Shown here: positions 5,139 through 62,156 of the stretch, one piece after another
How the letters are laid out: each line of letters starts with the position of its first letter
How positions within the stretch are numbered: the first letter of the stretch is position 1
Assembly: GCA_963699165.1 (NCBI GenBank)
Contig: OY969413.1
Span: forward strand, 212,310 to 276,309
Source: Candidatus Kaiserbacteria bacterium
GTDB taxonomy: Bacteria > Patescibacteriota > Minisyncoccia > Phycocordibacterales > Phycocordibacteraceae
Direction: 5' to 3'
Length of the DNA: 64,000 nucleotides
Notes under the pieces: model-generated
The model's input: the letters and a program-made list of their open reading frames with translations, nothing else
What the model was told of the DNA's origin: nothing
The model's database searches: none
Program-made: the position numbers and the translations under genes

Positions 5139-6062
5139 TTGCAAGATGTCGGAGATGCACTCGACCGACCGAAGAGTGTCATATGGTACGAGACGCAAAA
5201 GAAGAGGAAGGGACGGCCGTATGATGCTGCATATGCGCATCACATTTCATACGTACGAAGGAAATACAGCCGAGCGGTCGGCAAGATGATTGCTCTCGAC
5301 CCGAAGCTCCGGAAGTTCATCGAGGCGCATCTCTTCGACGATCAGTCGCCCGAAAACATCTCACTTCGATTGAAGCGGATCGAGAAGGATATCGGATATG
5401 CTTCATCCTCGGCTATACGCCGATATATCAAGAGCCCGTATGGCAGACGGATCGAGTCGCATCGAGCAAAGGTATTCAAGAAGAGGCGACGCTCTCGGCC
5501 ATCGAAACCACACATTGCCGACAAGCGCCTGATCGACAAACGACCGAGCAAAATCAACAAGCGATGGGGATTGGGTCACATGGAGGGCGACTTCATCGTG
5601 TCGGGCAAGAGCGGTCAAGGCATCATTCTTGGTCTGCGGGATCGCAGGGTGCGCAAAAACCTGCTGGAGCGGATCCTGCCAGTGTCAGTGCGAAACGTGG
5701 AGCGAGCGCTTCGCAGAATGAAAAAGCGGTATCCCGAGATGCAGACCATCACATTCGACAACGATATTCTCTTTCTCGAACACAAACGGCTAGAGAAGGT
5801 GCTTGGGGTGAAGATATATTTCTGTCATGTGCATGCGCCATGGGAGAAGCCATCAATCGAGAATCTGAACAAGGACTTGCGGCGGTACATCCCGAAAAGC
5901 TCGGATATTTCAAAGTATTCAAAAAGATTTGTGCAGAAACTCGAAGCAAAGATGAATCGCCGCTTCATGGATGTGCTCGGTTCACTCACGCCAGATGAGG
6001 CGTATGCTGCGGAAAAGAAACAACGCGCTCAGAGGAGCGCAAAAAACCGTCGTTCGAATTGA
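5139..6062 (+). CDS. IS30-family transposase, N-terminally truncated (possible pseudogene/remnant)
   Basis: GHMEGDFIV (the HWEGD-type first catalytic Asp region) plus downstream D and E regions. TTG start. Lacks the ~70-aa N-terminal HTH of full-length IS30 transposases. Confidence 0.7.
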   Translation: MQDVGDALDRPKSVIWYETQKKRKGRPYDAAYAHHISYVRRKYSRAVGKMIALDPKLRKFIEAHLFDDQSPENISLRLKRIEKDIGYASSSAIRRYIKSPYGRRIESHRAKVFKKRRRSRPSKPHIADKRLIDKRPSKINKRWGLGHMEGDFIVSGKSGQGIILGLRDRRVRKNLLERILPVSVRNVERALRRMKKRYPEMQTITFDNDILFLEHKRLEKVLGVKIYFCHVHAPWEKPSIENLNKDLRRYIPKSSDISKYSKRFVQKLEAKMNRRFMDVLGSLTPDEAYAAEKKQRAQRSAKNRRSN

Positions 6063-6118
6063 GGGGTTTGGGTGCCATTGGTTTCCCATTAAGATACTCG
6101 TATATGAAGGATTGTTTG

Positions 6119-7162
6119 TCAATTCATTGTACGCGTCCAGTACTTTTGGCAGTCCCCGACGGTTAATGTACACACAATATACCGCAAGGGGGACACCATG
6201 CCGAGCGACTGGTGCGGGCGTTTGGTGTTGTACCAGATCAGCCAGTCGACAAGCTTCAGATTGAAGGAATGAATATCGTCCCGCAGCAGGCCCCGATTCA
6301 GCATGATGAAGTCCTCGGAGACGGTGCGATTGAATCGTTCGACGTGGGCATTCATCTTGGGAGTGCGGGGGCGGGTGTGAAAGTGCGTGAGCCCGAGTTC
6401 GGCACAGGCATCCTCGAAGTGTTTGGCGAACTCGCTCCCGTTGTCGGTCTGCAACTCGTCGATATCGAAGGGGCAAACCTCGATGACTCGGCGAAGGAAG
6501 TCGTCCGCGCTTCTCGACGAGTGGTTCGTATACGCGCCCGCAAAGGCGAACTTCCGCTCCACGTCCACTGCCGTGAGGACGTACCGCTTCACGCCGTCGA
6601 TGAAGCGGACGACGGTATCGAGCTCCATGCCGCGCTTGCCGGTGCGGCGAAGCTTGGTACGGCGTTTCTGCGGTGTTTCCGTGTGATTGCCCGTACGTGC
6701 GTGGAACGAGAGCCGGCTCTGCTGCGGGAGCAGACCGCGGTTCTTCAAATCCAGAATGACCCGCCCAACGTATGACTCCGACACGGAGTACCCTTCTTCG
6801 CGCAGGAGAACGGCAAGCTTTGCTTTCCCAAGCCGGGGATGCGCCTGTCGTTCGCGGATGATGAAATCCTCGACCTCGGGCAGAACAGTCCTCCTTCGAC
6901 GCGCCTTCGGCGCAGTGCTCTTCGGGTCAAGTGCATCAATGCGGCCCTCGTGGGCTTTGAGTTCCTCCTTCCAGCGATACAAGGTGCGCTCCGAGGTGCC
7001 AAAGGCGTCGTATGCGGCCTCCGTCCCGTGCATGTCCCAGAATCCCAATATCTTCACCCGTCTGTCGACTTCCTTTGGTTTCCGCATATGCCGCAATCGT
7101 ATCGTCCTTTCCCACATGCTCAACCAGCCCTTCGTACCCCTGAAATTGCTTCTGATGCGCAT
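6119..7162 (-). CDS. IS481-family DDE transposase (HTH + rve integrase core); ORF terminates in flanking DNA
   Basis: 347 aa with DDE/rve hallmarks (TDNGSEF, HTRPRTPKMNAHVERFNRT). The last in-IS codon is the final ACA of the element; the stop is supplied by flank DNA (MN* here). Confidence 0.85.
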   Translation of the reverse strand: MRIRSNFRGTKGWLSMWERTIRLRHMRKPKEVDRRVKILGFWDMHGTEAAYDAFGTSERTLYRWKEELKAHEGRIDALDPKSTAPKARRRRTVLPEVEDFIIRERQAHPRLGKAKLAVLLREEGYSVSESYVGRVILDLKNRGLLPQQSRLSFHARTGNHTETPQKRRTKLRRTGKRGMELDTVVRFIDGVKRYVLTAVDVERKFAFAGAYTNHSSRSADDFLRRVIEVCPFDIDELQTDNGSEFAKHFEDACAELGLTHFHTRPRTPKMNAHVERFNRTVSEDFIMLNRGLLRDDIHSFNLKLVDWLIWYNTKRPHQSLGMVSPLRYIVCTLTVGDCQKYWTRTMN

Positions 7163-7206
7163 ATATCCTCGGTTATGAGGACTGCCAAATGTATCTGAAC
7201 TTATGC
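6128..7206 (-). mobile_element. IS481-family insertion sequence, copy 1 of 3 (~1079 bp, imperfect ~28-bp terminal inverted repeats, no target duplication at this copy)
   Basis: Identical (one coding difference) to 22926..24004 and 61070..62148. Ends are TGTACGCGTCCAGTACTTTTGGCAGTCC ... GGACTGCCAAATGTATCTGAACTTATGC. Flanks ATTCAT / AGCCCT do not match. Confidence 0.85.
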
Positions 7207-7408
7207 AGCCCTTGAGAGAAATCGAAACTGTTTTGCCATAAAATATGGCGTACAGACTGGTTTTTATGGGAATCAAATTGCATTCGCGCATCATTGATTT
7301 GCCATATCCAATCTGCCTTTCGGCATATGCATTTGAAAAAACACGGTGCGCGGCACGTGCGTAGCTTTTCGCTGTAATACGTGTCTGTGGATAACGTCCT
7401 ATAGGGAA

Positions 7409-16000: not shown

Positions 16001-17085
16001 ACACCACTGGCTCATACAACTCCGCACAGGGTTTTAACGCCCTCTCCTCCAACACCACTGGCTCATACAACTTCGGACTTGGTTACCAGGCAGGCTATGG
16101 CGACGGCTCCAACGCCGACAACCAGTCGGTCATCGACAACTATATGACCTTCATAGGAACGTACTCGTCGCGCGACGCTTCGGTGGCTTCCACAACTGCG
16201 CTAAGCAAAAGCACAGCAATCGGATACAACGCGAAAGTGGGGTGCTCGAACTGCCTTGTGCTTGGTGGGACGGGTGCGGATGCGGTAAATGTCGGCATCG
16301 GGACGACGACGCCATACGCACGATTGATGGTTTGGGGACCGGACACCGCTTCCACTTCCGCCTTTGCGATTGTGAACAGCGCATCCACCACCGTCTTCTC
16401 AATCTTCGACAACGGCAACGCCACCTATTCCGGCTCCATCTTCCAATCGTCCGATGCACGACTAAAGTCCAACGTTACTCCGCTTGATGCCTCTTCTTCT
16501 CTTGCCGCCATCAACGGACTCACGCCTGTCTCATACAACCGTCTCGACCAGAACGACTCGGGTACGAACTTGGGCTTCATCGCGCAAGCCGTACAGAGCG
16601 TGTTCCCCGAACTCGTCTCCACCACCTCTCCCACGGTACTTACCCCGGGCGGCACCCTCACGGTCAACTATGTGGGACTCATCGCGCCTCTCGTGAAGGC
16701 CGTGCAGGCGCTTTCGGGGCAGGTGAGTGCGCTTGCCTCGACGGTGACGGGTTTTGCGCAGTCGTTTACTTCGCAGAATATTACGGCAAAACAGCAACTC
16801 TGTGTCGGCGATACCTGCGTCACTGAAAGCCAGTTGAAAACGCTTTTGCAAAATGCGGGGCAGGGGAGCGGACAATCCGCGGCCGCCGCAGCGGCGGCCG
16901 CGGGCTCGGCATCGGGAAATTCGCAAGACGCGGCCGCAGGCCAAATCAAAGTCGATTCGGCAAGTTCTACCGAACAGCAAACACCTGCTGATTCCACAGC
17001 GACTTCAGCTCCTGTGACGGGGACTACAACTTCGCTTGATATAATCTCACAGACGGATTCGTCAGTTTCAAACACTACTAACTAA
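13030..17085 (+). CDS. Giant secreted repeat protein (1351 aa): signal peptide, GIGTTSP-type fibre repeats, 17-aa NTTGSxNSAQGxxALYx beta-roll-like repeats in two duplicated blocks, C-terminal phage-tail-fibre-type intramolecular chaperone (peptidase S74-like, SDARLK) domain
   Basis: N-terminal MPSRRRFSTLPTLVLILSLAPLAAQA signal. SSDARLKSNVTPLD...LTPVSYNRLD...GFIAQAVQSVFPELV matches the self-cleaving chaperone of endosialidase/tail-fibre proteins (Ser ... Lys five residues later). Ala/Ser/Gly-rich C-terminal tail. Confidence 0.85.
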   Translation: MPSRRRFSTLPTLVLILSLAPLAAQAALYAPGATLDPACGPTDPNCGVATTTISGTITMNGSIIPSVANTYSLGTAQNTWKDVYVGPGSLYVNGQEVLYTDPSHNVNVSADVNQDLILQTSGTGDIQLNPSGTGGLILLKGNVQLSAGKTLRSSDGTPLQFSDGIQAGNLALQANKLAAANTNGSLEFASLGLGAVYVSHGNFGIGTTSPLAALAVSGGASIGSDYNFAAPSNSLIVEGLVGIGTTSPSQSLSVNGRVYSSGGFQFPDGTIQTTAAFGGGATSTLLSDSNTFSGLDSFTNASSNFAGTWQGKALSYFQTALGYTPYNATNPNNYIPLTALSAGTGISYNNTTGQITNTGITSNTGNWAGTWQTYSPASFQPAGAYATFGYPFPSGATTTALTIDGATFAAGSTGNVGIGTTSPTSPLQIGVDSFTTPDLLIGSGANVGNFISLSGNRGIIGVNPSSGQFSLTAGSGKAFAFYVNSTNAPETGTQALIVQSNGNVGIGNTSPSYKLDVSGFINTDQYSGYNQAGNTVLYASTTNNSLAIGASQAAAWMSASSTQWYSVAIGSGALATTPTSAGAQYNTAEGYQDLNHNTTGSYNSAQGANALYNNTTGSYNSAQGYKALYYNTTGSYNSAQGFYALQNNTTGSNNSAQGNSALHSNTTGSNNSAQGQAALYSNTSGNQNSAQGANSLSSNTTGSYNSAQGNSALYSNTTGNYNFGLGYQAGYGDGTNADNRSVIDNYMTFIGTYSSRDASVASTTALSKSIAIGYNAKVGCSNCLVLGGTGADAVNVGIGNVSPSYPLDVSGFINTDQYSGYKQAGNTVLYASTTNNSLAIGASSAAAWMAASSTNWYSVAIGSGALATTPTNASAQYNTAEGYQALNHNTTGSNNSAQGYKALNANTTGYNNSAQGLNALLSNTTGSWNVAQGVNSLSHNTTGSNNSAQGYQALYFNTTGQQNSAQGVSALYANTTGSYNSAQGKGALYSNTTGSYNSAQGFNALSSNTTGSYNFGLGYQAGYGDGSNADNQSVIDNYMTFIGTYSSRDASVASTTALSKSTAIGYNAKVGCSNCLVLGGTGADAVNVGIGTTTPYARLMVWGPDTASTSAFAIVNSASTTVFSIFDNGNATYSGSIFQSSDARLKSNVTPLDASSSLAAINGLTPVSYNRLDQNDSGTNLGFIAQAVQSVFPELVSTTSPTVLTPGGTLTVNYVGLIAPLVKAVQALSGQVSALASTVTGFAQSFTSQNITAKQQLCVGDTCVTESQLKTLLQNAGQGSGQSAAAAAAAAGSASGNSQDAAAGQIKVDSASSTEQQTPADSTATSAPVTGTTTSLDIISQTDSSVSNTTN
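14520..16300 (+). repeat. Tandem direct duplication of ~880 bp (two ~294-aa blocks, ~85-90% identical) inside the giant gene, each containing ~9 copies of a 51-bp (17-aa) repeat
   Basis: Blocks ~14520-15410 and ~15410-16300 align nearly base for base (NVGIGNTSPSYKLDVSGFINTDQYSGY... vs NVGIGNVSPSYPLDVSGFINTDQYSGY...). Both end in ...CSNCLVLGGTGADAVNVGIG. Confidence 0.8.
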
Positions 17086-22564: not shown

Positions 22565-22586
22565 AACTCTTCGTATAAAAGCTAAA

Positions 22587-22620
22587 GGGCGCCCTCACAT
22601 TTGTGAGGGCGCCCTTTTTA
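22587..22620 (+). terminator. Rho-independent terminator (GGGCGCCCTCACA-tt-TGTGAGGGCGCCC + TTTTT)
   Basis: 13-bp perfect stem followed by a T-run, 22 nt after the helicase stop. Confidence 0.8.
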
Positions 22621-22856
22621 TGGGCTGACGTCTACGCCGCGACCGCGAGTTTAACCATCGCCGGGCTAAGGAATCTACCTTCTGCATCAAAGACGGCGAC
22701 TCGGTTGCTGAAGCCAACGAACAAGACTTTGTATTTCTTTTCCCCCGAAATCTCGTCGATATGTAGAGTTTGTTTTTCCCAGCCCGCCGAAGCCGGATTC
22801 GTTGGTCCGAAAAGTTCCGCCGTTGAACCGATATACATAAAAAGACCTTACCTTTC

Positions 22857-23960
22857 CTAACTTGTTGAGAAGCAATCCCAACTCGTTAGTAGGTATACAA
22901 CTTTGCAAAAAATTTGTCCAGCTACTGTACGCGTCCAGTACTTTTGGCAGTCCCCGACGGTTAATGTACACACAATATACCGCAAGGGGGACACCATGCC
23001 GAGCGACTGGTGCGGGCGTTTGGTGTTGTACCAGATCAGCCAGTCGACAAGCTTCAGATTGAAGGAATGAATATCGTCCCGCAGCAGGCCCCGATTCAGC
23101 ATGATGAAGTCCTCGGAGACGGTGCGATTGAATCGTTCGACGTGGGCATTCATCTTGGGAGTGCGGGGGCGGGTGTGAAAGTGCGTGAGCCCGAGTTCGG
23201 CACAGGCATCCTCGAAGTGTTTGGCGAACTCGCTCCCGTTGTCGGTCTGCAACTCGTCGATATCGAAGGGGCAAACCTCGATGACTCGGCGAAGGAAGTC
23301 GTCCGCGCTTCTCGACGAGTGGTTCGTATACGCGCCCGCAAAGGCGAACTTCCGCTCCACATCCACTGCCGTGAGGACGTACCGCTTCACGCCGTCGATG
23401 AAGCGGACGACGGTATCGAGCTCCATGCCGCGCTTGCCGGTGCGGCGAAGCTTGGTACGGCGTTTCTGCGGTGTTTCCGTGTGATTGCCCGTACGTGCGT
23501 GGAACGAGAGCCGGCTCTGCTGCGGGAGCAGACCGCGGTTCTTCAAATCCAGAATGACCCGCCCAACGTATGACTCCGACACGGAGTACCCTTCTTCGCG
23601 CAGGAGAACGGCAAGCTTTGCTTTCCCAAGCCGGGGATGCGCCTGTCGTTCGCGGATGATGAAATCCTCGACCTCGGGCAGAACAGTCCTCCTTCGACGC
23701 GCCTTCGGCGCAGTGCTCTTCGGGTCAAGTGCATCAATGCGGCCCTCGTGGGCTTTGAGTTCCTCCTTCCAGCGATACAAGGTGCGCTCCGAGGTGCCAA
23801 AGGCGTCGTATGCGGCCTCCGTCCCGTGCATGTCCCAGAATCCCAATATCTTCACCCGTCTGTCGACTTCCTTTGGTTTCCGCATATGCCGCAATCGTAT
23901 CGTCCTTTCCCACATGCTCAACCAGCCCTTCGTACCCCTGAAATTGCTTCTGATGCGCAT
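22857..23960 (-). CDS. IS481-family DDE transposase (copy 2); reading frame runs 60 nt into flank DNA before a stop
   Basis: Same 345-aa core as copy 1. C-terminus ...WTRT then VAGQIFCKVVYLLTSWDCFSTS from flanking sequence. Confidence 0.8.
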   Translation of the reverse strand: MRIRSNFRGTKGWLSMWERTIRLRHMRKPKEVDRRVKILGFWDMHGTEAAYDAFGTSERTLYRWKEELKAHEGRIDALDPKSTAPKARRRRTVLPEVEDFIIRERQAHPRLGKAKLAVLLREEGYSVSESYVGRVILDLKNRGLLPQQSRLSFHARTGNHTETPQKRRTKLRRTGKRGMELDTVVRFIDGVKRYVLTAVDVERKFAFAGAYTNHSSRSADDFLRRVIEVCPFDIDELQTDNGSEFAKHFEDACAELGLTHFHTRPRTPKMNAHVERFNRTVSEDFIMLNRGLLRDDIHSFNLKLVDWLIWYNTKRPHQSLGMVSPLRYIVCTLTVGDCQKYWTRTVAGQIFCKVVYLLTSWDCFSTS

Positions 23961-24004
23961 ATATCCTCGGTTATGAGGACTGCCAAATGTATCTGAACTT
24001 ATGC
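22926..24004 (-). mobile_element. IS481-family insertion sequence, copy 2 of 3, flanked by 6-bp target duplication AGCTAC
   Basis: Identical to copy 1 and copy 3 apart from the transposase codon noted on feature 61061..62104; flank repeats at 22920-22925 and 24005-24010. Confidence 0.9.
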
Positions 24005-24012
24005 AGCTACGC

Positions 24013-24944
24013 TGTACTAAGTCAACGCGTTGTTGACACTTTCTAGGTACGCCTCGAGTCTTCCGAATGGAGTTGTTCCGAGCGATTGGTGAATGCGGGT
24101 CTGGTTGTACCAGTCCACAAACGCATACAAATAGCGTCGGCGATGGGCTCGAGAGATGTGATTGGAACGTGTCTTCCCGTGCCATTCGGTCATGAGGGTT
24201 TTGATGAATCGCTCCGCTTTTCCATTGGTCCAGGGATGCTTCACTTTCGTGAACGCTTGGCTCATGCCCGTTTCCCTGCAGAGTGCCGCCACCGGATGAT
24301 CCGGTCGTCCCCGGTACTCGCTCCCGTTGTCGGAATAGATGCCGGTCACGGGGAACGGCAATACTCGCTTGCTCTCGGCGAGGAACATGGCGGCCGAATA
24401 TGCGGTCTTGTCGGGGAAGATATCGGCAAAGGCGGTACGAGAGTAGTCGTCAATGGCGACAAATAGGTATTCTCTCGGTTGCGCGGCGGCTTCTCCTCGC
24501 AGGAGCGGCAGGCGCTTGGTATCGAGATGCAGCATTTCACCCGGTATCGATTTCTCGTATCGGTTCAATCGATGGGCTTTGCGGGCGAGCTTCTCTCCCA
24601 CGCGCTTTTCGGTGCGAGCAAGCTTTTGGAACCCGTACAGGATGGTGCGATATCGGTGATTCATCGAGGAACGATTCTCGAAGACGTTCAGTCGGGCATC
24701 TTTAAGTGTCTCGTATACGGTTTCTCGGGAGACTTTGTATTCTCGGGCCAAATGGGTCGCTTGAGCTCCCATACCCCATCTGCGGAACATCTCACGCCGT
24801 TGGTACGGCAACAATTTGGTATTCTTGTGCATGCAAGAGGCGCTAACGATTAAATGGTCTGAACACCAAAATCGTACCGCGCCTTTTGCGCTTTCAATGA
24901 ACTCGTCGACGCGAAAAGTGTCAACAACCCGATACTAACGTACA
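24013..24944 (-). mobile_element. Second, distinct IS481-family insertion sequence (~932 bp) with ~30-bp terminal inverted repeats (TGTACTAAGTCAACGCGTTGTTGACACT / TGTACGTTAGTATCGGGTTGTTGACACT) and 7-bp target duplication GCTACGC
   Basis: IRs and flank repeats (24006-24012 and 24945-24951) read directly from sequence. Single copy in the window. Confidence 0.85.
24017..24832 (-). CDS. IS481-family DDE transposase (271 aa) of the second IS
   Basis: HLDTKRL...YLFVAIDDYSR, SDNGSEY, HPWTNGKAERFIKT catalytic regions; N-terminal HTH. Confidence 0.85.
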   Translation of the reverse strand: MHKNTKLLPYQRREMFRRWGMGAQATHLAREYKVSRETVYETLKDARLNVFENRSSMNHRYRTILYGFQKLARTEKRVGEKLARKAHRLNRYEKSIPGEMLHLDTKRLPLLRGEAAAQPREYLFVAIDDYSRTAFADIFPDKTAYSAAMFLAESKRVLPFPVTGIYSDNGSEYRGRPDHPVAALCRETGMSQAFTKVKHPWTNGKAERFIKTLMTEWHGKTRSNHISRAHRRRYLYAFVDWYNQTRIHQSLGTTPFGRLEAYLESVNNALT

Positions 24945-24945
24945 G

Positions 24946-25545
24946 CTACGCCTCTTTTCGATTTATCAGAGCGGCTCGGAGGGTCTCCGCATCGGAATAT
25001 TCAAGTTCGCTGCCGGTCGCAAGACCGCGGCCGAGAACGGAAATTTTGATTTTGTCGCGATAGGGAGCAAGAAGCGAACGGACGTAATCGGCCGTATGCT
25101 CGCCTTCGCTTGTCGCGCCGAGCGCGAGGACGATTTCGTTCAAATTATTTTTCACATGCTTTTCAACGGATTTCAGCAATTCCTTTTCGCGAATCGCACC
25201 TTTTCCGTTAAGAGTAAGTACGCCGCCAAGCACGAAGTAGCGGCCGCGGTAGGTGCCGGCGCGCTCAATGGCGGCGAGATCCTGGTCTTTTTCAACGAGC
25301 ATTAAAAGCGAATCTTCGCGGCGCGTATCGGAGCAATAATTGCAGAGGGGAGACATTCCATTGAAGAAACGCAAACATTCGGTGCATTGCCTGACGTCTT
25401 TGCCGAGCGATGTGATAAGCTCGGCGAGTTTGGTTCGTTCATACGCAGGAGCGGCAAGCAAGTAAAAAACAAAACGTTTGCCTTGCCGCGGGCCGATGCC
25501 CGGGAATCGCGCGAGTGCTTGTGCAAGTTCGTCGATTTTATCCAT
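24946..25545 (-). CDS. recR: Recombination protein RecR
   Basis: HhH N-terminus, C4 zinc finger (CTEC...CNYC), Toprim domain. The stop codon lies inside the IS target duplication. Confidence 0.92.
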   Translation of the reverse strand: MDKIDELAQALARFPGIGPRQGKRFVFYLLAAPAYERTKLAELITSLGKDVRQCTECLRFFNGMSPLCNYCSDTRREDSLLMLVEKDQDLAAIERAGTYRGRYFVLGGVLTLNGKGAIREKELLKSVEKHVKNNLNEIVLALGATSEGEHTADYVRSLLAPYRDKIKISVLGRGLATGSELEYSDAETLRAALINRKEA

Positions 25546-60752: not shown

Positions 60753-61022
60753 TTATGTTAATCGGCGAACTATTCTCGCGCGGCCGCCATACGGGTCGAG
60801 CACCATATCGACTTGGTCGCCGACCAAAACGCGAATGCGATGCAACCGCATCTTGCCCGAAAGATATGCAAGAACAATCGCTCCTTCTTCCGGCTCCGGC
60901 TTCACGCCGGCATCGTCTGAAGGTTCCTCTGCCGGCACAGACATGCGAACCCGAAAGAGTGAGTTTGGCAACACCTCTTCGACGGTGCCAACCGCCGTTT
61001 TTGTACTTTCGCCGTCATTCAT
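60753..61022 (-). CDS. infA: Translation initiation factor IF-1 with ~17-aa acidic insertion
   Basis: MNDGESTKTAVGTVEEVLPNSLFRVRM...GAIVLAYLSGKMRLHRIRVLVGDQVDMVLDPYGGRARIVRRLT. Six-frame ORF 60753..61418 extends spuriously into the adjacent IS. Confidence 0.85.
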   Translation of the reverse strand: MNDGESTKTAVGTVEEVLPNSLFRVRMSVPAEEPSDDAGVKPEPEEGAIVLAYLSGKMRLHRIRVLVGDQVDMVLDPYGGRARIVRRLT

Positions 61023-61060
61023 GCAGAGCCATATCAATGTAGCAGGTGTCGCTAAAATCG

Positions 61061-62104
61061 TCAAATAGTTGTACGCGTCCAGTACTTTTGGCAGTCCCCG
61101 ACGGTTAATGTACACACAATATACCGCAAGGGGGACACCATGCCGAGCGACTGGTGCGGGCGTTTGGTGTTGTACCAGATCAGCCAGTCGACAAGCTTCA
61201 GATTGAAGGAATGAATATCGTCCCGCAGCAGGCCCCGATTCAGCATGATGAAGTCCTCGGAGACGGTGCGATTGAATCGTTCGACGTGGGCATTCATCTT
61301 GGGAGTGCGGGGGCGGGTGTGAAAGTGCGTGAGCCCGAGTTCGGCACAGGCATCCTCGAAGTGTTTGGCGAACTCGCTCCCGTTGTCGGTCTGCAACTCG
61401 TCGATATCGAAGGGGCAAACCTCGATGACTCGGCGAAGGAAGTCGTCCGCGCTTCTCGACGAGTGGTTCGTATACGCGCCCGCAAAGGCGAACTTCCGCT
61501 CCACATCCACTGCCGTGAGGACGTACCGCTTCACGCCGTCGATGAAGCGGACGACGGTATCGAGCTCCATGCCGCGCTTGCCGGTGCGGCGAAGCTTGGT
61601 ACGGCGTTTCTGCGGTGTTTCCGTGTGATTGCCCGTACGTGCGTGGAACGAGAGCCGGCTCTGCTGCGGGAGCAGACCGCGGTTCTTCAAATCCAGAATG
61701 ACCCGCCCAACGTATGACTCCGACACGGAGTGCCCTTCTTCGCGCAGGAGAACGGCAAGCTTTGCTTTCCCAAGCCGGGGATGCGCCTGTCGTTCGCGGA
61801 TGATGAAATCCTCGACCTCGGGCAGAACAGTCCTCCTTCGACGCGCCTTCGGCGCAGTGCTCTTCGGGTCAAGTGCATCAATGCGGCCCTCGTGGGCTTT
61901 GAGTTCCTCCTTCCAGCGATACAAGGTGCGCTCCGAGGTGCCAAAGGCGTCGTATGCGGCCTCCGTCCCGTGCATGTCCCAGAATCCCAATATCTTCACC
62001 CGTCTGTCGACTTCCTTTGGTTTCCGCATATGCCGCAATCGTATCGTCCTTTCCCACATGCTCAACCAGCCCTTCGTACCCCTGAAATTGCTTCTGATGC
62101 GCAT
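61061..62104 (-). CDS. IS481-family DDE transposase (copy 3); stop codon supplied by flank DNA (TI*)
   Basis: 347-aa ORF; one conservative difference from copy 1 (REEGH vs REEGY). Confidence 0.85.
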   Translation of the reverse strand: MRIRSNFRGTKGWLSMWERTIRLRHMRKPKEVDRRVKILGFWDMHGTEAAYDAFGTSERTLYRWKEELKAHEGRIDALDPKSTAPKARRRRTVLPEVEDFIIRERQAHPRLGKAKLAVLLREEGHSVSESYVGRVILDLKNRGLLPQQSRLSFHARTGNHTETPQKRRTKLRRTGKRGMELDTVVRFIDGVKRYVLTAVDVERKFAFAGAYTNHSSRSADDFLRRVIEVCPFDIDELQTDNGSEFAKHFEDACAELGLTHFHTRPRTPKMNAHVERFNRTVSEDFIMLNRGLLRDDIHSFNLKLVDWLIWYNTKRPHQSLGMVSPLRYIVCTLTVGDCQKYWTRTTI

Positions 62105-62148
62105 ATATCCTCGGTTATGAGGACTGCCAAATGTATCTGAACTTATGC
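61070..62148 (-). mobile_element. IS481-family insertion sequence, copy 3 of 3, flanked by 6-bp target duplication AATAGT; inserted 48 nt upstream of infA
   Basis: Identical to copies 1 and 2 apart from one transposase codon (H in copy 3 vs Y in copies 1 and 2). Flank repeats at 61064-61069 and 62149-62154. Confidence 0.9.
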
Positions 62149-62156
62149 AATAGTCC

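What the first reader, a model, noticed from the sequence alone, without database searches (positions are those of the whole stretch)
22920..24951. Two different IS481-family elements inserted back-to-back at one hotspot, with overlapping target duplications allowing exact reconstruction of the empty site at the recR stop codon
Copy 2 of the 1079-bp IS is flanked by AGCTAC (22920-22925 and 24005-24010). The adjacent 932-bp IS is flanked by GCTACGC (24006-24012 and 24945-24951). The duplications overlap by 5 nt, so the ancestral sequence was ...TTTGTCC-AGCTACGC-CTCTTTTCG..., with CTA being the recR TAG stop on the other strand. Both insertions used the same 8-bp window immediately after recR without disrupting it. 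Intact TSDs and identical IS copies argue for recent activity. The two transposases face the same direction toward recR.
Basis: seen in the sequence. Interest (0 to 1): 0.55.

Follow-up and report, generated by a model that had tools for sequence, protein, structure and literature searches.

The report
Two transposons stacked beside a promoter
Two unrelated small jumping genes sit back-to-back just after the recR gene of a tiny-genome (Patescibacteria) bacterium, most likely because both kinds insert at a fixed 5 or 7 bases upstream of a promoter-like TTGACA box; the pile-up itself is ordinary, but this targeting rule appears not to have been described.

Summary
IS-A (22926-24005, three 99.9% identical copies in the window) and IS-B (24013-24944) are adjacent, carry intact overlapping target duplications, and leave recR with its TAG stop. 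Both transposases match the IS481 model best, but below its curated cut-off.

Corrections:
- IS-A is probably 1080 bp with TG...CA ends and a 5-bp duplication (GCTAC). That duplication is nested in IS-B's 7-bp GCTACGC.
- Both transposase genes lie downstream of recR and are transcribed away from it, not toward it.
- The empty site was not found in two public collections.

New finding: the stop codon is incidental. Both duplications end flush against TGGACA (22915-22920, minus strand), a -35-like hexamer.
- All 7 IS-A-family insertions read at DNA level have T[T/G]GAC exactly 5 bp beyond the transposase-distal end.
- 98 of 116 homologue clusters end two residues past the element, so the hexamer's TGA supplies the stop codon.
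- In 29 IS-B-family flanks, perfect TTGACA occurs 7 times, only at offset 7, usually followed by a -10 box.

The duplication regenerates the target, so elements stack. This predicts that IS-B arrived first.

Closest precedent is ISAba32 abutting XerCD sites. I rate it a new variant of a known kind, of moderate interest.

The parts
22892..22897 (-). -10-like hexamer TATACC, 17 nt downstream of the TGGACA hexamer
   Evidence: Read from the sequence and scored 4 of 6 at spacer 17. The promoter scan does not call it because position 6 is not T.
22915..22920 (-). TGGACA, a -35-like hexamer (TGTCCA on the + strand); proposed anchor of target choice for both elements
   Evidence: Both duplications end flush against it. 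The same position holds T[T/G]GAC in 7 of 7 IS-A-family sites. It holds TTGACA-like hexamers in 10 of 29 IS-B-family flanks, and only at that offset.
22921..22925 (.).
   Evidence: A 5-bp duplication length is supported by relatives L163, L190 and L191.
22926..24005 (-). IS-A copy 2: 1080-bp IS481-like element with TG...CA ends. The imperfect inverted repeats are TGTACGCGTCCAGTACTTTTGGCAGTCC and TGCATAAGTTCAGATACATTTGGCAGTCC.
   Evidence: Boundaries come from the three copies and from relatives.
22857..23960 (-). IS-A transposase ORF (HTH_32 + rve + rve_3; DDE residues present). There is no stop inside the element. In this copy the ORF runs 21 codons into the flank, because the hexamer is TGGACA rather than TTGACA.
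   Evidence: Copies 1 and 3 stop at the TGA of TTGAC after 2 extra codons.
24006..24012 (.). GCTACGC: left copy of the IS-B 7-bp duplication. Its first 5 bases are also the right copy of the IS-A duplication.
24013..24944 (-). IS-B: 932-bp IS481-like element with inverted repeats TGTAC...GTTGTTGACAC; the only copy in the window
   Evidence: Relatives have 7-bp duplications.
24017..24832 (-). IS-B transposase, 271 aa (rve + rve_3, weak HTH_7); its stop codon lies inside the terminal repeat
24945..24951 (.). GCTACGC: right copy of the IS-B duplication. It contains the recR stop codon (24946-24948) and the last sense codon.
24946..25545 (-). recR, intact; the duplication restores its last codon and stop
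22632..22838 (-). orf68, an unconserved 68-aa ORF downstream of the TGGACA/TATACC promoter-like site; now separated from recR by about 2 kb of IS
   Evidence: called as a gene in GCA_049279115.1. No homologue in 160 related loci.
61059..62154 (-). IS-A copy 3 (61070-62149) with 5-bp duplication ATAGT (61065-61069 and 62150-62154). It abuts TTGACG (61059-64)-17 nt-TACATT, upstream of infA (ATG at 61022).
6117..7207 (-). IS-A copy 1 (6128-7207). It abuts TTGACA (6117-6122) across 5 bp (TTCAT), has no target duplication, and lies next to an IS30-family transposase gene (5139-6062).

Best explanation
Two distantly related IS481-like insertion sequences landed one after the other in the same few base pairs because both use the same landmark. 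That landmark is a TTGACA-like (-35-type) hexamer, and each places its staggered cut so that its target duplication ends flush against it. The duplication is 5 bp for IS-A and 7 bp for IS-B.

In the ancestral sequence the hexamer TGGACA began one base after the recR stop: ...GAG GCG TAG C|TGGACAAATTTTTTGCAAAGTTG TATACC... on the minus strand. The cuts therefore fell in the recR stop region, and the duplication automatically rebuilt the recR end.

After the first insertion the duplication copy next to the hexamer is again a perfect target. A second element can insert there, and elements stack. Under this rule the later arrival must be the one nearest the hexamer, so IS-B came first and IS-A second.

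IS-A always has the hexamer on its transposase-distal end and has no stop codon of its own. It normally borrows the TGA of TTGAC. Here the hexamer is TGGACA, so the ORF reads 21 codons further.

Status of each step:
- Shown: the element boundaries, the duplications, and the positional enrichment of the hexamer and of a -10 box.
- Inferred: that the hexamer causes target choice (by direct recognition or through a promoter-bound host factor), the order of arrival, and that the site is a working promoter.
For: Local anatomy:
- Searches give the element boundaries, the duplications and the recR stop.

IS-A family at DNA level:
- Seven independent sites were read: window copies 1-3, L163, L190, L191 and L192.
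- Each shows element end ACA | N5 | TTGACA, TGGACA, TTGACG, TTGACA, TTGACG, TTGACT or TTGACG.
- The 5-bp duplications in relatives are CATCC, GTGGA and TTTCC.
- An offset scan of six of these sites (L192 was read afterwards) finds at least 5 of 6 matches to TTGACA in 6 of 6 at offset 5, and in none at the 24 other offsets.
- T[TG]GAC occurs at only 0.0013 per position per strand in the window.

IS-A family at protein level:
- 98 of 116 homologue clusters end exactly two residues after the Thr encoded by the terminal ACA.
- The second of those residues is never K, E, Q, M or W (0 of 98, against 12 of 98 for the first). This fits N5 followed by T and then a stop.

IS-B family:
- 29 distinct flank sides were scored from four transposase clusters of 56-89% identity.
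- Perfect TTGACA occurs in 7 and a match of at least 5 of 6 in 10, all at offset 7. Only one such match occurs at any other offset.
- In all 6 insertions whose two sides can be paired by their 7-bp duplication, exactly one side carries the hexamer. In one of the six (L172) the contig end shows only its first four bases, TTGA.

Promoter character:
- Hexamer-bearing flanks have a -10-like box 16-18 nt further on, scoring a mean 5.0 of 6 against 2.6 of 6 for other flanks (Mann-Whitney p = 2e-4).
- The promoter scan independently calls TTGACG-17-TACATT next to copy 3, upstream of infA.

Precedents:
- A stop codon supplied by the target is reported for the IS481-family members ISLxc2 and ISLxx4 (PMC2516522).
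- Insertion abutting a site at exactly the duplication length, with tandem insertions, is reported for the ISAba32 subgroup of IS1202 (bioRxiv 10.1101/2022.12.17.520857).
Against: - No empty site or singly occupied site was found, so neither the two-step history nor the order is observed directly.
- The hexamer here is TGGACA, not TTGACA. Its -10 (TATACC) is weak and the promoter scan does not call it.
- orf68, the ORF downstream, is unconserved.
- The IS-B rule is a preference, not absolute. Several flanks have no hexamer, and L173 has neither a hexamer nor a duplication.
- Metagenome contigs through repeats can be chimeric, so flanks were treated as single sides.
- Sample sizes are small at the DNA level.
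- Selection against disruptive insertions could add to the -10 enrichment.
- Copy 1 lacks a duplication.
- L180-L183 show an IS-A-like end directly abutting an IS-B-like end in a geometry that the rule does not explain.
Confidence: 0.72

Rival explanations
1. Classical IS481-type sequence preference. Both elements target a CTAG/TAG-containing site, and the recR TAG stop codon is itself the hotspot.
For: IS481, ISLxc2 and related elements duplicate NCTAGN (PMC2516522). The three duplications in the window that can be read all contain CTA or TAG: GCTAC, ATAGT and GCTACGC.
Against: Duplications of relatives lack TAG/CTA. In the IS-A family they are CATCC, GTGGA, TTTCC and CTTGC. In the IS-B family they are CAATTGC, GATTGCC, GCATGCA and GCTATTC. 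None of the duplications fits NCTAGN. The invariant feature lies outside the duplication.
Confidence: 0.08
2. Coincidence plus selection. Both elements insert more or less at random, and only insertions in the short non-coding gap after recR survive in a gene-dense genome.
For: ISs are generally enriched in intergenic and inter-operon regions through purifying selection (PMC13548323). The recR/helicase gap varies in relatives from 3 to 3765 bp.
Against: Selection cannot explain base-exact registration. Both duplications start at the same base next to the hexamer. The hexamer sits at exactly the duplication length in 7 of 7 and 10 of 29 unrelated junctions and nowhere else. The IS-free gap here is about 358 bp, so two hits within 7 bp by chance is unlikely.
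Confidence: 0.07
3. Same hexamer-anchored targeting, but the opposite order: IS-A inserted first and IS-B then inserted into the right-hand duplication copy next to the IS-A end.
For: The final sequence is identical under both orders (worked through). In L180-L183 an IS-B-like end directly abuts an IS-A-like IRL end, so IS-B relatives can land at IS-A ends. The IS-B hexamer rule is not absolute.
Against: In that order IS-B would have had TGCATA (3 of 6 matches) on one side of its duplication and CTCTTT on the other. That means no hexamer, whereas all 6 paired IS-B-family insertions have one. IS-A copies are 99.9% identical, which fits a recent burst.
Confidence: 0.2
4. The pair moved as one composite unit (IS-A, spacer, IS-B) and inserted once with a 5-bp duplication GCTAC.
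For: The outer flanks do share GCTAC (22921-22925 and 24945-24949), as a single 5-bp duplication would.
Against: The 7-bp spacer between the elements (GCTACGC), together with the preceding A that ends IS-A, reads AGCTACGC. That is exactly the reconstructed target with its neighbouring bases, which would be a coincidence if it had been carried from another site. The two outer ends belong to different, unrelated elements, which a single transposase is unlikely to pair.
Confidence: 0.03

Closest known systems
ISAba32 subgroup of the IS1202 family, abutting XerCD recombination sites (bioRxiv 10.1101/2022.12.17.520857)
   Same: The transposase is a DDE (rve-type) enzyme distantly related to IS481 and IS3. 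The element is always found at a distance from a defined site equal to its own 5-6 bp duplication. Insertion is oriented, and tandem insertions at the same site are reported.
   Different: The landmark here is a 6-bp -35-like hexamer (TTGACA) with a -10 box downstream, not a 28-bp XerC/XerD site. The transposases match the IS481 model best. The elements are much smaller (0.93-1.08 kb). IS-B accepts the landmark at either end. The hosts are Patescibacteria.
IS481 of Bordetella pertussis and ISLxc2/ISLxx4 of Leifsonia (IS481 family proper)
   Same: About 1 kb long, a single transposase ORF without frameshift, TG... termini, a short duplication, and many near-identical copies. In ISLxc2 and ISLxx4 the transposase stop codon lies in the host target (PMC2516522). 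Elements often sit juxtaposed to flanking genes (PMC13548323).
   Different: The target there is the palindrome NCTAGN, which is itself duplicated and supplies TAG. Here the duplicated bases are variable, and the conserved motif (and the TGA stop) lies just outside the duplication. HMM scores fall below the curated IS481 cut-off.
Promoter-proximal 'safe haven' integration by rve-type integrases, such as Ty3 at Pol III start sites, and Tn7 at attTn7 downstream of glmS (own knowledge, not tested)
   Same: Insertion occurs at a fixed distance from a conserved functional landmark, so that host genes are not disrupted.
   Different: Those systems use a dedicated targeting protein or contacts with transcription factors. 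Here there is a single small transposase and no evidence yet for a host partner.

Membership tests
IS481 family (both IS-A and IS-B) | Transposase matches the family profile (NCBIfam NF033577) at or above the curated cut-off | tested here: not met
   IS481 is the best-scoring family for both, at 182.9 and 166.0 bits against a cut-off of 224. IS3 is second at 93.8 and 63.3 bits. A relative of the IS-B transposase (P0115) is named 'IS481 family transposase' by NCBI. Both are best treated as divergent IS481-like elements.
IS481 family (both IS-A and IS-B) | Single transposase ORF with an rve-type DDE domain and N-terminal HTH, and no programmed frameshift (unlike IS3) | tested here: met
   There is one uninterrupted ORF in each element. 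Pfam finds rve + rve_3 in both, HTH_32 in IS-A and a weak HTH_7 in IS-B. DDE residues are present, with D-to-E spacing of 35 and 39.
IS481 family (both IS-A and IS-B) | About 1-1.5 kb long, terminal inverted repeats beginning 5'-TG(T), and a short target duplication | tested here: met
   IS-A is 1080 bp with ends TGTACG.../TGCATA... and a 5-bp duplication. IS-B is 932 bp with ends TGTAC.../TGTAC... and a 7-bp duplication. The TGT terminus is stated for the IS3 and IS481 families in bioRxiv 10.1101/2022.12.17.520857.
IS481 family (IS-A) | Transposase stop codon supplied by the target (reported for some members) | tested here: met
   There is no stop inside IS-A. The stop is the TGA of the flanking TTGAC in copies 1 and 3 and in relatives, and 98 of 116 homologue clusters end two residues past the element. 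Precedent: PMC2516522.
IS481 proper (Bordetella type) | Target and duplication of the form NCTAGN | tested here: not met
   The duplications are GCTAC, ATAGT, CATCC, GTGGA, TTTCC, CTTGC, GCTACGC, CAATTGC and others.
Site-abutting IS of the ISAba32/IS1202 kind | Insertion at a distance from a specific site equal to the duplication length, with tandem insertions at that site | tested here: met
   The offset-specific hexamer is at 5 bp for IS-A and 7 bp for IS-B. This locus is a tandem case. This concerns behaviour only.
Site-abutting IS of the ISAba32/IS1202 kind | IS1202-family transposase and a XerC/XerD recombination site as landmark | tested here: not met
   NCBIfam returned no IS1202-type hit, only IS481, IS3, IS21 and others. 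The landmark is a 6-bp hexamer followed by a -10 box, not a 28-bp xrs.

The most novel reading that the evidence does not exclude
Two only distantly related IS481-like lineages, abundant in Patescibacteria and groundwater metagenomes, may recognise promoters rather than just a hexamer. They might be tethered to sigma-70 region 4 or RNA polymerase bound at the -35 element, and integrate at a fixed 5 or 7 bp upstream. That would be a bacterial counterpart of Ty3-type promoter-directed 'safe haven' integration, with the IS-A transposase even terminated by the TGA of TTGACA.

Hints in favour:
- Transposases sharing only 32% core identity and carrying different N-terminal HTH domains show the same landmark.
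- A -10 box is enriched at the correct spacing.
- Two IS-B flanks with poor -35 boxes (TTGGCG, TAGCCA) have good -10 boxes.
Probability: 0.25. Interest if true: 0.8.

Novelty: new variant of a known kind. Interest (0 to 1): 0.55.

Why it matters
As first described, two ISs sharing a target is a routine consequence of site-preferring transposition. It mainly documents recent IS activity in a roughly 1-Mb Patescibacteria genome. The 64-kb window holds five ISs: three IS-A copies, one IS-B and one IS30-family element.

The added value is the rule behind the pile-up. It is a base-exact association of two IS481-like lineages with the upstream edge of -35-type hexamers, seen in many unrelated metagenomes.

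If it holds, it matters in four ways:
- It explains how ISs persist in very gene-dense genomes without breaking genes or promoters. One example here is insertion 5 bp upstream of the infA promoter.
- It gives a simple, testable system for how a small DDE transposase measures distance from a landmark.
- It offers a free computational marker for promoters in uncultivated Patescibacteria.
- It warns annotators that IS-A transposase ORFs end in host DNA, so their C-termini differ from copy to copy.

Tried and rejected
- Exact search for the reconstructed empty junction TTTGTCCAGCTACGCCTCTTTTCG gave 0 hits in metagenome contigs and in genome contigs.
- Exact-protein look-ups of RecR and the neighbouring helicase found only one other assembly, GCA_049279115.1. 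Its contigs break 127 nt into IS-B and IS-A at the same junctions, so there is no empty allele.
- RecR relatives (160 loci, at most 86% identity) contain neither transposase within 4 kb. They are too diverged to show the ancestral junction and only support the ancestral gene order.
- Exact-protein look-ups of the window's IS-B transposase and of P0121 (the IS-A representative on a 993-kb contig) returned nothing. Other insertion sites in the source genome could therefore not be collected.
- The 73-member P0121 cluster is contaminated with IF-3 proteins and cannot serve as a copy count.
- The 5 versus 6 bp duplication for IS-A cannot be resolved, because the ambiguous base is T in the element and in every target.
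- I looked for a symmetric (palindromic) target. Only L190 has a hexamer on both sides, so this was rejected.
- I looked for IS30-like inverted repeats to explain copy 1's missing duplication. The result was inconclusive.
- The promoter scan does not call the TGGACA/TATACC site. An internal outward promoter-like match in IS-A (TCGGCA-17-TATATT) is no more than shuffles give.
- Literature searches for TTGACA or -35 targeting by IS481-like elements found nothing. The library is incomplete and ISfinder/TnPedia could not be consulted.
Full report
**1. What is in the sequence**

On the + strand it reads:

...AAATTTGTCCA GCTAC [22926-24005] GCTACGC [24013-24944] GCTACGC CTCTTTTCG...

- AGCTAC is at 22920-22925 and 24005-24010.
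- GCTACGC is at 24006-12 and 24945-51.
- recR is the minus-strand ORF 24946-25545. Its TAG stop is the CTA at 24946-24948.
- RecR matches TIGR00615 and the RecR_C domain to their last positions, so it is complete.

A repeat search and direct comparison show three copies of the left element, which I call IS-A. They start at 6128, 22926 and 61070, are all in the same orientation, and differ by 1-2 bases. The points where the copies diverge fix the left end at 22926.

At the right end all three copies share one further base (A at 24005). Four relatives from other metagenomes and genomes (72-75% identical transposases; L163, L190, L191, L192) begin with the same TGCAyAAGTTCAGATAC terminus. Three of them have 5-bp duplications: CATCC, GTGGA and TTTCC.

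IS-A is therefore best described as 1080 bp with TG...CA termini and a 5-bp duplication, GCTAC. That duplication is nested inside the 7-bp duplication of the right element, IS-B. The alternative of 1079 bp with 6 bp cannot be excluded formally, because the ambiguous base is T in every element and every target.

IS-B is 932 bp, with inverted repeats TGTAC...GTTGTTGACAC. It is single-copy in the window.

**2. What the elements are**

- Both transposases score best against the NCBIfam IS481 model (183 and 166 bits, cut-off 224). IS3 is a distant second.
- Pfam finds rve + rve_3 in both, HTH_32 in IS-A and a weak HTH_7 in IS-B.
- Both keep a DDE triad.
- The two share only 32% identity over a 136-residue catalytic core, so they are separate lineages.
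- Both have thousands of homologues, mostly on roughly 1-kb metagenome contigs. That is what multi-copy elements look like in short-read assemblies.

RecR relatives place the organism in Patescibacteria (Kaiserbacteria/Paceibacteria).

Both transposase genes are on the minus strand, downstream of recR and transcribed away from it.

**3. Was there an empty site?**

- The reconstructed 24-mer has no exact match in the metagenome or genome collections.
- The only other assembly carrying identical RecR and helicase proteins (GCA_049279115.1) has the same two outer junctions. Its contigs end 127 nt inside each IS, a typical repeat break.
- Among 160 related loci (RecR at most 86% identical), 118 show recR and the DEAD-box helicase gene converging. 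The gap ranges from 3 to 3765 bp (median 135), and none has either transposase.

The pair is therefore a lineage-specific insertion into a conserved convergent gap. The empty allele itself remains unobserved.

**4. Why the same site**

On the transposase strand the three window copies of IS-A read:

- ACA|ATGAA|TTGACA
- ACA|GTAGC|TGGACA
- ACA|ACTAT|TTGACG

The four relatives read:

- ACA|CATCC|TTGACA
- ACA|GTGGA|TTGACG
- ACA|TTTCC|TTGACT
- ACA|CTTGC|TTGACG

. In an offset scan of six of these sites (L192 was read afterwards), a match of at least 5 of 6 to TTGACA occurs in 6 of 6 at offset 5 and at none of 24 other offsets. It is not seen on the other end, apart from L190. T[TG]GAC occurs at 0.0013 per position per strand in the window.

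IS-A has no stop codon of its own. In copies 1 and 3 and in the relatives, the ORF ends at the TGA of TTGAC, two codons past the element.

Of 116 homologue clusters with the conserved C-terminal motif, 98 end exactly two residues after the terminal Thr. The second of those residues is never K, E, Q, M or W (0 of 98, against 12 of 98 for the first). This is as expected if the sixth flanking base is a pyrimidine followed by a stop. The rule is therefore family-wide.

In copy 2 the hexamer is TGGACA, so there is no TGA and the ORF runs on to 22857.

**5. IS-B follows a similar rule**

For IS-B I collected 30 distinct junction sides, 29 of them long enough to score, from four transposase clusters (56-89% identity; L165-L189) plus the window.

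- Perfect TTGACA occurs 7 times and a match of at least 5 of 6 occurs 10 times, all exactly after the 7-bp duplication. Only one such match occurs at any other offset.
- In all six insertions whose two sides can be paired through the duplication, exactly one side carries the hexamer. In one of the six (L172) the contig end shows only its first four bases, TTGA. The hexamer lies on the IRL side in four and on the IRR side in two, including the window.
- Hexamer-bearing flanks have a -10-like box 16-18 nt further on, for example TTGACA-17-TATAAT in L174 and TTGACA-18-TATAAT in L167. The mean score is 5.0 of 6 against 2.6 of 6 in other flanks (p = 2e-4).
- The promoter-scan tool independently calls TTGACG-17-TACATT beside IS-A copy 3, 14 nt upstream of the infA start codon.

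In every case the promoter-like site points away from the element. The IS sits upstream of the -35 and does not separate a promoter from its gene.

**6. Applying the rule to this locus**

The ancestral minus strand was ...GAG GCG TAG C TGGACA-N17-TATACC..., followed 54 nt later by the ATG of orf68. Both duplications (GTAGC and GCGTAGC) end at the base before TGGACA.

The recR stop is involved only because the hexamer starts one base after it. recR survives because the duplication re-creates its last codon and stop.

A duplication regenerates the 'N5 or N7 plus hexamer' geometry next to the hexamer, so a second element can insert there. Under this rule the later arrival is the one adjacent to the hexamer. 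That implies IS-B first and IS-A second.

The reverse order gives the same final sequence. However, it would have required IS-B to insert with TGCATA and CTCTTT beside its duplication, that is, with no hexamer.

A single composite insertion is unlikely. The spacer between the elements, read with the A that ends IS-A, is AGCTACGC. That reproduces the target together with its neighbouring bases.

**7. Comparison with what is known**

- A stop codon provided by the target is reported for the IS481-family members ISLxc2 and ISLxx4, where NCTAGN is duplicated (PMC2516522). Here the duplicated bases vary and the conserved motif lies outside them, so the classical IS481 target is not met.
- The closest behavioural precedent is the ISAba32 subgroup of IS1202. 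Its transposases are distantly related to IS481 and IS3. These elements abut XerCD sites at exactly the duplication length, in one orientation, with tandem insertions reported (bioRxiv 10.1101/2022.12.17.520857).
- I found no paper describing TTGACA or -35 targeting by IS481-like elements. The library is partial and ISfinder could not be checked.

**8. Limits**

- DNA-level samples are small.
- Metagenome contigs through repeats can join different copies, so I counted sides rather than contigs.
- The IS-B rule is a preference, not a law.
- The local hexamer and -10 are imperfect, and orf68 is unconserved.
- Whether the transposases read the hexamer directly or sense a promoter-bound factor is open.
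- Copy 1 lacks a duplication, and L180-L183 show a different IS-A/IS-B abutment that the rule does not explain.

**9. Verdict**

The pile-up itself is an ordinary outcome of site-preferring transposition. The underlying -35-abutting rule, shared by two IS481-like lineages, is a new variant of a known kind and is worth a systematic survey.

Noticed in passing
window 5139-7207: A second IS cluster. An IS30-family transposase gene (5139-6062; 169 bits against a cut-off of 80) lies directly beside IS-A copy 1 (6128-7207). Copy 1 has no target duplication (left flank TTCAT, right flank GCCCT) but still abuts TTGACA at 6117-6122. Recombination between IS copies or an adjacent rearrangement is likely.
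   Followed up: partly
window 61022-62154: IS-A copy 3 sits 5 bp upstream of a promoter-like TTGACG-17-TACATT. That site lies only 14 nt before the infA (IF-1) start codon, and the transposase gene is co-directional with infA. This is an insertion next to an essential gene that leaves its promoter intact.
   Followed up: partly
L180-L183 (ENA ERZ27254767, ERZ27254737, ERZ28563825, ERZ28563591), about 110 nt upstream of the transposase gene: In other metagenomes an IS-A-like element and an IS-B-like element are again directly adjacent, but head to head. The junction is ...CTTATGCA|GTACATTCCC, with the IS-B-like end lacking its first T and no spacer. The hexamer rule does not explain this geometry.
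   Followed up: no
window 14536-16288: Two blocks of six tandem 51-nt repeats (14732-15286 and 15608-16162) lie inside a larger 876-bp duplication. Identity between copies is 63-91%. This is probably a repetitive protein-coding gene.
   Followed up: no
protein cluster of P0121: The 90%-identity cluster represented by the IS-A transposase also contains many proteins named translation initiation factor IF-3 (167-200 aa). This is either a clustering artefact or chaining through read-through ORFs that fuse the transposase tail to a downstream infC.
   Followed up: no
window 22584-22617: A strong bidirectional terminator-like hairpin (15 pairs, 10 of them G-C) lies between the helicase gene and orf68. 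It is the only terminator-like site between recR and the helicase gene, so recR and orf68 may originally have been co-transcribed.
   Followed up: no
L003-L162, region downstream of recR: In relatives the convergent recR/helicase gap ranges from 3 to 3765 bp (for example L009 at 3320 bp and L096 at 3765 bp). Other DNA has therefore been gained here repeatedly. The content was not examined, except that it lacks these two transposases.
   Followed up: no
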